A stretch of DNA of 64,000 bases, taken from the IMG/VR virus record IMGVR_UViG_3300033068_001655. One strand, 5' to 3'. The notes under the pieces were generated by a model. The model did no database searches. It saw only the letters and a list, made by a program, of their open reading frames with translations, and had not been told where the DNA came from. Origin of the DNA: a virus (Duplodnaviria > Heunggongvirae > Uroviricota > Caudoviricetes). Positions 60,095 to 63,592 of this stretch are shown in pieces. Within the stretch, counting starts at the first letter, position 1. Each line of letters begins with the position of its first letter. The position numbers and the translations under genes are program-made.

Positions 60095-60514
60095 ATGAGA
60101 TATTTAAAATTATTTGAGAGTTTTAATGAAAATGAAATAATAGATTTTTGTGAAACATATCTAGCTTATTTGTTAGATGATACAACATTTAAGATTAGAG
60201 TATTGGATAATAGATATTGCTCTCAGGGTACTCAATATGGTGGAGGTGGTGTATCAGAAAGTTCTAATTCAGTACTTTCACTTTATAGAGAAAAAGACAC
60301 TTCTACATCAGGTATGCCACAACCAATGACATTTTACTGGAATGATATTAAAGATCGATTTATACCATTTCTAACTATGTTAGACAAGAGTTATGAAATT
60401 TTAAATATTACTTTTGCCAGTCATGTATTCTCATATAGAGATATTAAATTAGATGATATTGAAGATGGTGTTAAATTTGCAATTAGAAATATTATCATAT
60501 CAATAAAAAAATAA
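60095..60514 (+). CDS. Hypothetical protein with capsid-targeting-like N-terminus, paralog of 25711-26157
   Basis: MRYLKLFESFNE..IIDFCETYLAYLLD...WNDIKDRFIPF. Confidence 0.75.
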   Translation: MRYLKLFESFNENEIIDFCETYLAYLLDDTTFKIRVLDNRYCSQGTQYGGGGVSESSNSVLSLYREKDTSTSGMPQPMTFYWNDIKDRFIPFLTMLDKSYEILNITFASHVFSYRDIKLDDIEDGVKFAIRNIIISIKK

Positions 60515-60538
60515 AACCCACCAATTGGTGGGTTTTTA
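60514..60538. terminator. Bidirectional intrinsic terminator
   Basis: aaaacccacc-aatt-ggtgggttttt. Confidence 0.85.
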
Positions 60539-60539
60539 A

Positions 60540-61988
60540 TTAAAGTTGAATAGCTTTAATTTCATTGAAAAGAGCTTTCTTATCCATTTCCATCATCTTC
60601 ATTACGTCGAAAACTTTATCGGAAAAACCAGTCAAAGCAAATACATTGTTTTCTGGAAACTGCATTGTGCCTAGTCCGGCAAGATCCCAAGAGTAAACAT
60701 AAGGATTTGCATCATACGTTTTCTTATATTGTTTGAACTCAGTAGTTGGACTTGTGTAACCAACCCATCCTTGCATATCTGAAAGGATAACAACTCTATC
60801 ATACTTTTTATTAGCAGTTGTAAAGATAGATTTGAAGTTTGTTCCACCTCCAGAATATCTAAAACTATTTCTAATAGTCATAACAGAATCCATTGGATTG
60901 TATGACTTATAATCAGATCTTGTTGCAAATGTTAAAACATCTGCGTTGTTAGCTTTTGCTAAAATTGCACCAAATAATGAAGCAATTTCAGATGGTCTAC
61001 CACTCATAGATCCAGAAACGTCCATAACAACTAATGTATCACCATCAAACTTAGGAACATTACACATAGAAACTTCTAATGCTTGATTGATAGCAACTAA
61101 AATATCTCTAACTTCTTTTGAAGAACCCATTTTACTGATTTCTTCATATGCAGTTGCAAATCTGAATGGTAAAACTCTTGACTTAGAAATCAATCTTTCG
61201 TCTACAAGTAATTCACAAGCAACTGGAACTAACTTAGGAGCTTGGCTTATAATGTTTCTAAGGTTTCTTAAAAGAGCAAAATAACCAATCTTTCTTGATG
61301 TAAGAAGTTCTGTCCAAGCATCCGCTTTTAATTGTGCCAAATCTTCTTCATTCTCAGCAACTTGTCCTGCTTGAGAAAGTTTAGCTTCCCAAGTATCAGT
61401 GTTTTTTAATTCACCTTTAACAAGTAATTCTAAAGCAGTCTTATTTTTATCAGTTGGAACTGGGTGTACAATGTTCACTAAGTCAACTAATTTAAGATCT
61501 TTATTTTTACCAGAGTATTTTGCCAATTGGTAAGCATCAAACTTATCAAAAGCTTTAGCAAATCCTTTTTTCAAAGAGTTTGGAAACTTTGGATTGTCTT
61601 TACTTGTTTTATGCATTAAATAGTATGACATAATCTCAGTCATATCATCAACACGAACTACAACTTTGTCATAGAAGTTTTTACCTAATTCAGTACCTTT
61701 CAACTCTGATGTTAATTCACCAGCTAAAGCGTGAGTAATACTTCTCATACCAAATTTATCACGAGCATAAATTGCTGCTTTTGCTGCAAATTCTGGATCT
61801 ACTTTCTTAACTAAGTTTCTTAAATCTTTTAATGTATCATTACCAGATTTGTAAAATTGATCATTTACAAATGAAGTTAATAACATAGATACTAAAGCTA
61901 ATTCATTTGTTTGAGAATAAGCTTCTCCACCTGCTAAGTTAGTAGTTAGTGTTTTAGGTTCTTTTACTGTTGTGTTAAATTTACTCAT
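60540..61988 (-). CDS. rsr: Ro60/Rsr TROVE-domain RNA-binding protein with vWA domain
   Basis: NLAGGEAY, AAIYAR...GMR, FDAYQLAKY, DLV..VHP, TWE..LS, ALLRNLRN, SRVLPFRF; vWA DVSGSM MIDAS, GGTN, SDMQ. Confidence 0.92.
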   Translation of the reverse strand: MSKFNTTVKEPKTLTTNLAGGEAYSQTNELALVSMLLTSFVNDQFYKSGNDTLKDLRNLVKKVDPEFAAKAAIYARDKFGMRSITHALAGELTSELKGTELGKNFYDKVVVRVDDMTEIMSYYLMHKTSKDNPKFPNSLKKGFAKAFDKFDAYQLAKYSGKNKDLKLVDLVNIVHPVPTDKNKTALELLVKGELKNTDTWEAKLSQAGQVAENEEDLAQLKADAWTELLTSRKIGYFALLRNLRNIISQAPKLVPVACELLVDERLISKSRVLPFRFATAYEEISKMGSSKEVRDILVAINQALEVSMCNVPKFDGDTLVVMDVSGSMSGRPSEIASLFGAILAKANNADVLTFATRSDYKSYNPMDSVMTIRNSFRYSGGGTNFKSIFTTANKKYDRVVILSDMQGWVGYTSPTTEFKQYKKTYDANPYVYSWDLAGLGTMQFPENNVFALTGFSDKVFDVMKMMEMDKKALFNEIKAIQL

Positions 61989-62036: not shown

Positions 62037-62195
62037 TTATATATCTTTTGTTTTATCAATTATAACTTTCTCTATAAAGGAGCTATAATTTTCTATACCA
62101 TTTTCTTCACAATACTTAACCCACATTTCATATACTCTTGGATCAACTGAAAATGATATTGTTTTCTTTTTATCCTTTTCCTTCTTTAATTTCAT
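62037..62195 (-). CDS. Ribbon-helix-helix protein, missing from the ORF track
   Basis: Manual translation MKLKKEKDKKKTISFSVDPRVYEMWVKYCEENGIENYSSFIEKVIIDKTKDI (52 aa). Confidence 0.7.
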   Translation of the reverse strand: MKLKKEKDKKKTISFSVDPRVYEMWVKYCEENGIENYSSFIEKVIIDKTKDI

Positions 62196-62333
62196 ATCTA
62201 TAAACTATTTTTTTGTTTCAATATAACATATATATTAAATCATTAAAATTGTTGAAAAATAATTAAAAAATTATTGTAAAATTATTGTTTTTGGCTTTGG
62301 TTATTTAATATATACTAAAAAGAAATAGATAAT

Positions 62334-62516
62334 ATGAAAAGAAAAGTTAAAATAAAAAAAGTGAATGCGTCGATAACTCTTGATCCGAAGGTTCTTGAAA
62401 TAGTAGATTCTAGTTTTTCAAATAGATCAAAGTTTATAGAAAACATAATTATCGAAGAGCTATGTAAAAATGAACTCTTTAAGAATGAATTAAAAAAACT
62501 AAAAATTATTATATGA
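62334..62516 (+). CDS. Ribbon-helix-helix protein
   Basis: ASITLDPKVLEIVDS.FSNRSKFIENII. ATGA overlap with the HNH gene. Confidence 0.75.
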   Translation: MKRKVKIKKVNASITLDPKVLEIVDSSFSNRSKFIENIIIEELCKNELFKNELKKLKIII

Positions 62517-63136
62517 AAGTATGTATAGAATGTAATCTTGAGTTAGATGATGTATTTTTCAAAAAATATACAAGAAAAAGATGTATAGATTGTTATAGAA
62601 ATTATTACAGAGAATATGAGAGTAAGAATAGAGAAAGAATAAGAAACAGACAAAGAGAATATCAAGCGAAAAATGTTTCAAGTTTACAAGAAAAAAGAAA
62701 AAAATATAGAGAGATAAATAAGGATAGAATAAAAGAAAATTATATAAATTTTATAAATAAAAATCCAAACTATAATACTCTATATTCTAGAAAAAGATAT
62801 AATAATGATGATTTATTCAGGCTTATTAGAAATTATAGAAATCTAATTTCACTTGCCTTTAAGAATTCAAAATTTATAAAATCTGCTAATAGTGAAGAGA
62901 TTTTGGGTTGTACATTTGAAGACTTGAAAAAATACCTGGAAAGTAAGTTTGAGCCTTGGATGACTTGGGAAAATAGAGGTCTATATAATGGTGAGTTTAA
63001 TTATGGTTGGGATATAGATCACATCATACCTATATCATCTGCTAATTCTGAAAATGATATTATAAAATTAAGCCATTATACTAATTTACAACCTCTTTGT
63101 AGTAAAATAAATAGAGAAATTAAAAGAAATAATTAA
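62513..63136 (+). CDS. HNH homing endonuclease, family copy 3
   Basis: CIEC...CIDC; WDIDHIIP...HYTNLQPLCSKINR. Confidence 0.85.
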   Translation: MKVCIECNLELDDVFFKKYTRKRCIDCYRNYYREYESKNRERIRNRQREYQAKNVSSLQEKRKKYREINKDRIKENYINFINKNPNYNTLYSRKRYNNDDLFRLIRNYRNLISLAFKNSKFIKSANSEEILGCTFEDLKKYLESKFEPWMTWENRGLYNGEFNYGWDIDHIIPISSANSENDIIKLSHYTNLQPLCSKINREIKRNN

Positions 63137-63180: not shown

Positions 63181-63383
63181 GCAAACAAGAAAACTAGCCT
63201 AAGCGTCACAAAGAATTCTACATAAACTCTGCCGATGTTGAAGTGACATCTCACTCATGCCCTATTAAGGTGGAATCTGATACCTGACTTTCTTGCCCGA
63301 AGGGAGCAGCCGTAGCCTGACTTTGCTCGTTCATAGATATGTAATTAATGCATCGAAGTATCTTAGAACTTTACTATGTTTGC
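63181..63383 (-). ncRNA. Candidate Ro60-associated (Y-like) structured RNA A, 203 nt
   Basis: Ends pair (GCAAACA/UGUUUGC; UCUAAG/CUUAGG). GC-richer than its surroundings, cUUCGg tetraloop, no ORF. Confidence 0.65.
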
Positions 63384-63400
63384 TTTATTTTAATAATAAA

Positions 63401-63474
63401 ATCAGAGAAATTTATTAGAGAGGTTGTTTAGCGATACCAAAAATTGCGATGTAGCTCTCTAATTTACTACTGAT
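63401..63474 (-). ncRNA. Candidate Ro60-associated structured RNA B, 74 nt
   Basis: AUCAG/CUGAU and UUAGAGAG/CUCUCUAA stems with the same linker motifs as RNA A. Confidence 0.6.
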
Positions 63475-63592
63475 GTTTATGTTATAGAAAACAATTAAAA
63501 AAAGTTTAATCTATTTTTAATTATTTTTATGTATATAGTAACCTTTGAAATTTCAATTTTTTCCAAGGTGGATTTTTTACAGAAGTAATTTT

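What the first reader, a model, noticed from the sequence alone, without database searches (positions are those of the whole stretch)
63181..63474. RNA A and RNA B share one closing-stem signature around unrelated interiors
Both read (minus strand): stem1 - UAGUAAA - stem2 - N - UAC(U/A)UCG - variable insert - stem2' - short linker - UUUCU - stem1'. Stem sequences differ but still pair (GCAAACA/UGUUUGC vs AUCAG/CUGAU; UCUAAG/CUUAGG vs UUAGAGAG/CUCUCUAA), which is covariation within one genome. The invariant linkers look like a protein-recognition site. The insert (about 150 nt vs 24 nt) looks like an exchangeable payload, matching the modular design of Y RNAs. A U-G pair and the cUUCGg loop favour the minus strand.
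Basis: seen in the sequence. Interest (0 to 1): 0.75.

Follow-up and report, generated by a model that had tools for sequence, protein, structure and literature searches.

The report
Ro60-binding handle on two phage RNAs
Two small RNA genes of a giant phage share a base-paired "handle" that most likely docks them onto the phage's ring-shaped Ro60 protein. This is the known Y-RNA kind of system, but the longer RNA carries a pseudoknotted domain, found only in this phage clade, where bacterial Y RNAs carry a tRNA look-alike.

Summary
Observation confirmed. On the minus strand, RNA B (63474-63401) and RNA A (63383-63181) share one closing architecture (2 matches in the window, 0.03 expected). It is most likely the Ro60-binding module of Yrl-type Y RNAs. 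A Ro60/TROVE gene lies 1.2 kb downstream; in about 50 related large-phage loci B, A and a terminator sit directly before it. Over 195 TROVE loci the handle lies upstream on the same strand 320 times out of 333. Both stems covary. The "linkers" pair with each other into a bulged helix and are not invariant (consensus GYAGYRA...GWUACUUCG...UUWCUC). In bacteria the same handle closes YrlA tRNA mimics, tRNA-like bodies, T arms or short loops, so the payload is exchangeable. B is a YrlB-like hairpin. A's payload is not tRNA-like; its 3' part is a covarying pseudoknot plus hairpin, single-copy and confined to one phage Ro60 clade. One metatranscriptome contig covers just B+A (weak support). Ro60 binding and A's partner are untested. 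This scan already reported the same family in other phage genomes. Verdict: new variant of a known kind.

The parts
63482..63507 (-). Promoter-like element (AAACTTTT ... TATAA) in front of RNA B; putative
   Evidence: AAACTTTT followed by an AT-rich TATAA-like block precedes B in most of 42 related loci. 3 matches in the window vs 1.18 expected, not significant on its own.
63401..63474 (-). RNA B: 74-nt hairpin Y RNA (YrlB-like): handle plus 24-nt loop
   Evidence: 88.7% of cells paired, 9 of 10 stem2 pairs with double changes.
63181..63383 (-). RNA A: 203-nt long Y RNA: handle plus 150-nt non-tRNA payload
   Evidence: 96.5% of cells paired over 45 sequences; no tRNA or Rfam YrlA hit.
63354..63383 (-). 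5' strand of A's handle: stem1, bulged U, AGUAA, stem2, GAUACUUCG (counterparts of GNCGAAN0-1G and YUAY)
   Evidence: comparison with PMC4201824.
63181..63203 (-). 3' strand of A's handle: stem2', pyrimidine tract ending CU, stem1'
63208..63256 (-). Conserved 3' payload domain of A: hairpin 63255-63242 whose loop GAUG (63250-63247) pairs with CAUC (63237-63234) as an H-type pseudoknot, then a stem 63232-63208
   Evidence: Pseudoknot helix 89.7% paired, 3 of 4 pairs with double changes (rows). Found once per genome and only in this phage clade.
63134..63169 (-). 16-bp terminator hairpin ending the B-A unit; its U-tract is replaced here by the edge of the inserted cassette
   Evidence: z -7.35; in L243 the identical hairpin is followed by a T run; conserved in relatives.
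62037..63136 (.). Inserted cassette (HNH ORF 62513-63136 +, small ORFs 62334-62516 + and 62037-62195 -) separating the RNAs from Ro60; not part of the RNAs
   Evidence: Absent at this site in L243 and L001-L003; homologous cassette behind the RNAs in L274 and L061; HNH Pfam E 0.0035, below cut-off.
60540..61988 (-). Ro60/Rsr orthologue (TROVE + vWA, 482 aa), the likely binding partner
   Evidence: Pfam TROVE 2.5e-18; phiLo Ro60 8e-25; predicted fold matches phiLo, Deinococcus, Xenopus and human Ro60, TM 0.57-0.70.

Best explanation
The shared signature is the Ro60-binding module of two phage-encoded Y RNAs. B and A are transcribed as one roughly 320-nt unit ending at the terminator and are probably trimmed into two RNAs (inferred). 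In each, the 5' and 3' ends form stem1, a bulged pyrimidine, AG/CU, an asymmetric internal loop and stem2, followed by the conserved UACUUCG (pairing shown by covariation). The phage's own Ro60 binds this handle on the outside of its ring (inferred from gene linkage and from homologues). B, a bare hairpin, would stabilise or gate the ring like YrlB/Yrn2. A uses the same handle to tether a clade-specific pseudoknot domain, in place of YrlA's tRNA mimic, to Ro60, so as to bring in an effector. My best guess for the effector (about 0.35-0.4) is host PNPase or another RNA-decay enzyme, as shown in vitro for Thermus phage phiLo; next is the phage's own Rnl1/Rnl2-type RNA repair enzymes (about 0.25). 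The confidence value below is for the handle being a Ro60-bound Y-RNA module.
For: Ro60 gene on the same strand 1.2 kb away, and 300-550 nt away in relatives. 320 of 333 handles upstream on the TROVE strand over 195 loci. Motif-first search recovers TROVE in 47/94 and 37/56 hits, none on the opposite strand, and in 14 of 47 remaining records elsewhere on the contig. In 20 bacterial genomes 12 of 13 model hits fall in the TROVE locus (against ranges). Same handle consensus on short RNAs, A RNAs and RNAs with T- and D-arms; the latter score against Rfam YrlA at E 4e-6 to 5e-3, below the gathering score. Covariation beats all 500 shuffles on paired cells and covariation score, and beats slid registers. 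A metatranscriptome contig covers 63164-63486 only (weak). Literature: Y RNAs are modular, lie within 4 kb of Ro60 on the same strand, come at least two per locus, and carry GNCGAAN0-1G and YUAY (PMC4201824); phiLo Ro60 binds two Yrls and attenuates host PNPase (PMC12135203). Five near-complete relatives lack PNPase and RtcB; 4 have Rnl1 and 3 an Rnl2-type ligase.
Against: No binding data. The literal GNCGAA/CGAA motif, each base of which matters for phiLo Ro60, is absent from both window RNAs (UAGUAAA); GCGA is present in 32 of 46 related A RNAs. Rfam gives no Y-family hit on the window even at E 10. A is longer than the 80-130 nt quoted for characterised Y RNAs and has no folding-energy signal; its stem2 has pairing probabilities near 0.2 in the single-sequence ensemble. 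One complete 131-kb phage has a full handle and no detectable TROVE (L113). Related sequences can pass the shuffle control without structure, and the effector is a guess.
Confidence: 0.88

Rival explanations
1. The handle is a processing or stability signal read by a host nuclease or tRNA-maturation factor, not by Ro60. It releases small RNAs from polycistronic tRNA-type transcripts, and the link with TROVE reflects shared RNA-repair neighbourhoods.
For: The handle copies away from TROVE that I fetched lie in or at the end of tRNA arrays. A complete phage has a handle without detectable TROVE (L113).
Against: Real tRNAs in the same arrays lack the handle. Position relative to TROVE is very tight. 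The architecture matches the described Ro60 site. A TROVE-less phage could be using the host's Ro60.
Confidence: 0.06
2. B and A are cis-acting elements of the Ro60 mRNA leader (riboswitch or autoregulatory attenuator acting on the terminator).
For: In relatives they lie directly upstream of the Ro60 start with a terminator in between.
Against: The terminator does not overlap A. A 1.1-kb divergent cassette between RNAs and gene is tolerated in this genome and in L274. Handles also occur downstream of TROVE and in arrays of up to five with tRNA-like payloads. No riboswitch family matches.
Confidence: 0.04
3. A DNA-level inverted repeat, mobile-element end or chance resemblance between two AT-rich hairpins.
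For: AT-rich sequence; B folds as well or better on the plus strand; an HNH cassette is adjacent.
Against: 0.03 expected by chance; single-copy per genome; G-U over A-C 160:16; conserved in relatives that lack the cassette.
Confidence: 0.02

Closest known systems
YrlA/YrlB Y RNAs with Rsr (Chen et al. 2014, PMC4201824; Rfam RF02553; structure in bioRxiv 10.1101/312249)
   Same: Two RNAs on the Ro60 strand within 4 kb; 5'/3' closing stem with a conserved 5' purine-rich motif and a YUAY-like element after the upper stem; one short hairpin RNA and one with a large effector module. The very same handle closes YrlA-type T-acceptor-D domains beside bacterial members of this TROVE clade.
   Different: Handle consensus is GYAGYRA...GWUACUUCG...UUWCUC, with both strands conserved, not literal GNCGAAN0-1G. 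A has no D or T arm, is about 200-300 nt in the family and ends in a pseudoknot. No Rfam hit.
Thermus phage phiLo Ro60 with Yrl1 and Yrl2 (PMC12135203; PDB 9KOP, 9L5Y)
   Same: Phage-encoded Ro60 (best sequence and fold match), two Y-like RNAs upstream, stem-bulge-stem site, no phage PNPase.
   Different: About 25% protein identity; phiLo RNAs use a CGAA motif; no pseudoknot domain described; PNPase recruitment is shown there and untested here.
Deinococcus radiodurans Rsr/Yrn1/PNPase (RYPER) and metazoan Ro60/Y RNA
   Same: Modular RNA: bulged-helix Ro60 site plus a separate effector-binding end; polycistronic precursor.
   Different: Different sequence (GGUCCGA-type helix) and, per PMC4201824, a separate lineage; different effector module.

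Membership tests
Bacterial/phage Y RNAs (Yrl type) | Encoded within about 4 kb of a Ro60 orthologue, on the same strand | tested here: met
   1.2 kb here, 300-550 nt in relatives; protein verified by Pfam, PDB and fold.
Bacterial/phage Y RNAs (Yrl type) | Long stem from paired 5' and 3' ends with a bulge or internal loop | tested here: met
   Covariation in 30 B and 45 A sequences; computational only.
Bacterial/phage Y RNAs (Yrl type) | 5' motif GNCGAAN0-1G | tested here: inconclusive
   Not literal in the window (UAGUAAA). The same position reads GYRA in the family, GCGA in 32/46 A RNAs and 16/46 YrlA-type RNAs.
Bacterial/phage Y RNAs (Yrl type) | Conserved YUAY after the upper stem | tested here: met
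   CUAC in B; AUAC in A (first base differs); UUAC is the family majority (feature).
Bacterial/phage Y RNAs (Yrl type) | [quoted passage not shown] | tested here: met
   B plus A in about 50 loci; feature.
Bacterial/phage Y RNAs (Yrl type) | Expressed as discrete small RNAs | tested here: inconclusive
   One 344-nt metatranscriptome contig covers 63164-63486 in a close strain; contigs cannot show ends, strand or level, and only one study shows it.
Bacterial/phage Y RNAs (Yrl type) | Bound and stabilised by Ro60 | not testable with these tools
   Needs EMSA or pull-down.
YrlA (RF02553) | tRNA-like effector domain with T arm, acceptor-like hairpin and D arm | tested here: not met
   No ARAGORN, Rfam or T/D-motif hit in A or B or in their phage homologues. 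Neither RNA is a YrlA.
Ro60/TROVE proteins (partner) | HEAT-repeat TROVE ring closed by a vWA domain | tested here: met

The most novel reading that the evidence does not exclude
The handle is a portable Ro60 address tag onto which different RNA modules have been grafted, and RNA A is a new Y-RNA class whose pseudoknot domain recruits a host or phage factor that is not a tRNA-recognising protein or PNPase, giving megaphages a new Ro60 ribonucleoprotein for counter-defence or RNA repair.
Probability: 0.3. Interest if true: 0.75.

Novelty: new variant of a known kind. Interest (0 to 1): 0.5.

Why it matters
What the effector module of bacterial Y RNAs does is an open question (PMC4201824). This locus gives a natural domain swap: one handle and one Ro60 clade, with a tRNA mimic in bacteria and a pseudoknot domain in giant phages, plus a payload-free control (RNA B) in the same transcript. 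Pull-downs with A, B and handle/payload chimeras would separate Ro60 binding from effector recruitment. The handle consensus also finds many Y RNAs that the Rfam YrlA model misses at its gathering score, including ones without tRNA features. The system type itself, phage Ro60 with two Y RNAs, is published, and this scan has seen the same A/B family before, which limits the surprise.

Tried and rejected
Rfam at gathering and at E 10: nothing credible on A or B. ARAGORN: no tRNA or tmRNA in the window. Single-sequence folding does not support A (z +0.77; one search used a range that cut off the 3' stem and should be ignored, and the window row of alignment A3 lacks its last 7 nt for the same reason). 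By eye I compared A's interior with HDV-like, hammerhead, twister and pistol ribozymes, RNase P, SRP and c-di-GMP riboswitch layouts recalled from memory; the topologies do not fit and Rfam finds none. A 27-codon frame inside A is not conserved in homologues. Sigma-70 promoter scan gave fewer sites than shuffles. No own genome was held. Three of four RNA runs (X1, X13, X14) had no cover over the RNAs; a part without cover proves nothing. The small-share runs I did not lay are no evidence. The B-trained model does not detect A in local mode, so single-copy statements rest on separate models for B and for A's 3' domain. Two further viral pattern scans found no new homologues of the window's short A subtype, so the 5' half of its payload (63353-63257) has no covariation support. 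My module detector requires stem closure, so I did not use its output for covariation; alignment A4 was left untested for that reason. The first tree script mislabelled three bacterial loci and was corrected. Two reviews (PMC10870794, PMC6047535) and PMC6542706 were not held, and the supplement of PMC4201824 was unavailable, so I cannot exclude that some handle-bearing YrlA RNAs of this clade are listed there. No complex prediction was run: the tool does not score RNA partners.

Full report
Observation. The minus strand holds two elements as described: B at 63474-63401 and A at 63383-63181, 17 nt apart, followed by a 16-bp hairpin at 63169-63134. The 5' half of the signature occurs twice in the window against 0.03 expected. 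Folding of the single sequences is unconvincing: B scores z -2.05 on the minus and -3.40 on the plus strand, A z +0.77. The case therefore rests on comparison.

Context. The window is from a tailed phage (tail fibre, helicase and UvsX-like hits). ORF 61988-60540 is Ro60: TROVE and vWA domains, best PDB match phiLo Ro60, predicted fold matching phage, bacterial and animal Ro60. Its closest annotated-collection relative (76%) is in a 634,780-bp uncultured phage that has B, A and the terminator directly upstream. Nearly all large-phage loci of this TROVE group have the same order: promoter-like AT tract, B, A, terminator, Ro60. L243 is 98.7% identical to the window over the RNA region, with a T run after the hairpin and Ro60 right behind. 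In the window an HNH cassette has been inserted just after the hairpin; a homologous cassette follows the RNAs in L274 and L061. The 1.2-kb gap is thus secondary.

Structure of the handle. In sequence-only alignments the closing helices covary. For B, 88.7% of cells pair, 11 pairs show double changes and 9 of 10 stem2 pairs do. For A, 96.5% pair and 13 pairs show double changes. Slid registers fall to 29-51%. G-U cells outnumber A-C cells 160 to 16 in this orientation, which fixes the strand. Relatedness inflates such counts, so I weigh the many distinct pair types in stem2 more than the shuffle result.

Link to Ro60. Protein first: over 195 TROVE loci from phages, MAGs and metagenomes a handle detector gave 320 hits upstream on the same strand, 8 downstream, 3 inside the gene and 2 on the other strand. 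Motif first: DNA patterns over IMG/VR gave 94 and 56 hits, of which 47 and 37 have TROVE on the same strand in the fetched stretch and none on the opposite strand; 14 of 47 remaining, mostly fragmentary, records have TROVE elsewhere. Whole records: the B model hits once in 19 of 24 phage records, and 12 of 13 hits in 20 bacterial genomes fall in the TROVE locus. Exceptions exist: extra copies in tRNA arrays and one complete phage without detectable TROVE.

Exchangeable payload. Among distinct upstream elements 92 are short hairpins like B, 46 carry a YrlA-type T arm, acceptor-like hairpin and D arm, 56 are long without tRNA features, and 92 are other. The last group includes T-arm-only, D-anticodon-T ordered and unrelated inserts. 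All share one consensus, GYAGYRA...GWUACUUCG...UUWCUC. The T-D forms score against Rfam YrlA below the gathering threshold. Related handles close YrlA-type domains next to Ro60 in the cultured phages BRock, Atuin and CcrColossus. By position these elements correspond to the GNCGAAN0-1G and YUAY motifs of Chen et al. 2014. This is the main reason to call the handle a Y-RNA module.

What is new in A. A and its homologues (about 200-300 nt) have no tRNA features. The 5' half of the payload varies by gain and loss of hairpins; the window's version is a short one that lacks the first hairpin pair of most relatives. The 3' part is conserved: a hairpin whose loop pairs downstream, then a further stem. 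The pseudoknot helix changes on both sides in several lineages (GAUG/CAUC, UAUG/UAUA, AAUG/CAUU, GACC/GGUC). A model of this domain hits only members of this phage group, once per genome, and none of the bacterial TROVE loci tested. On a TROVE tree all 52 A-bearing proteins fall in one clade of 57 (support 0.91; the other five loci are cut off upstream), whose neighbours carry a short RNA or YrlA-type arrays (outgroup sampling limited to best hits). The simplest reading is that A replaced YrlA in this phage lineage.

Expression. One freshwater metatranscriptome has a 344-nt contig covering 63164-63486 with 9 differences, with adapter sequence on the terminator side and separate from the Ro60 contig. 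This fits a B-A precursor, but contigs cannot show ends, strand or level, DNA carry-over is possible and it is one study. It is weak support.

Mechanism. Shown: sequence, pairing by covariation, gene linkage, payload exchange, Ro60 fold. Inferred: Ro60 binds the handle (0.88); B gates or stabilises the ring; A tethers an effector. Five near-complete relatives encode neither PNPase nor RtcB, while most encode Rnl1 and several an Rnl2-type ligase far from the locus. With the phiLo result that phage Ro60 plus Yrl binds and slows host PNPase, host PNPase is the leading candidate (about 0.35-0.4), phage RNA repair the second (about 0.25), and a nuclease-resistant decoy or gate the third.

Verdict. 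The system is of a known kind and B is an ordinary member. A works like a Y RNA but is not a YrlA, and I found no description of its domain in Rfam or in the papers searched. The scan reported the same A/B family in other phage genomes; those notes agree but are not independent evidence. New variant of a known kind; interest 0.5.

Noticed in passing
L324:4319-4440 +; L323:4840-4960 +; L331:3783-3905 + (phage csAssE-Sib); L027:4854-4980 +: Handle-closed RNAs whose payload is a tRNA body in normal D-anticodon-T order with an intact anticodon loop (UAU, UAA, UUU, GUA) and the handle in place of the acceptor stem. ARAGORN, Rfam or the record annotate them as tRNAs. They may be Ro60-tethered decoys for anticodon nucleases, and may be mis-annotated tRNAs.
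   Followed up: partly
L113:5990-6080 - (130,845-bp complete phage): A full handle with short payload in a complete phage genome with no detectable TROVE or DUF2828 gene; possibly a Y RNA aimed at the host's Ro60.
   Followed up: partly
window 62037-63136; L274:1320-2950; L061:6040-6840: The same HNH plus two-small-gene cassette sits behind the Y-RNA terminator in three genomes. The window's RNAs are nearly identical to L243 while its Ro60 is closer to L001-L003 (95% vs 85%), a mosaic that suggests recombination or homing at this site.
   Followed up: partly
L023, L024, L031, L295 (TROVE match spans 2130 nt): TROVE genes interrupted by about 700 extra bases, probably an intron or inserted element; a contig in run X1 also has 719 extra letters inside the TROVE gene.
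   Followed up: no
L212:3433-3668, L233:3431-3669, L235:3433-3669, L236:944-1126, L239:3485-3676, L306:913-1243: Other long, non-tRNA payloads (180-330 nt) on the same handle in Verrucomicrobia MAGs and a metagenome contig, unrelated to A's pseudoknot domain.
   Followed up: no
L329:7415-8310 (crAss phage PhiCrAssBcn17, host Bacteroides intestinalis): Downstream of the TROVE gene of a cultured crAss-like phage lie several GUUACUUC-bearing tRNA-like units; a culturable system for testing related handles.
   Followed up: no
L332:4579-4742 (Streptomyces phage BRock): Sub-threshold Rfam manA RNA match (49.7 bits, E 7.5e-10) in the tRNA array near the Ro60 gene.
   Followed up: no
window 60513-60536: Intrinsic terminator right after the Ro60 gene, between convergent genes.
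   Followed up: no
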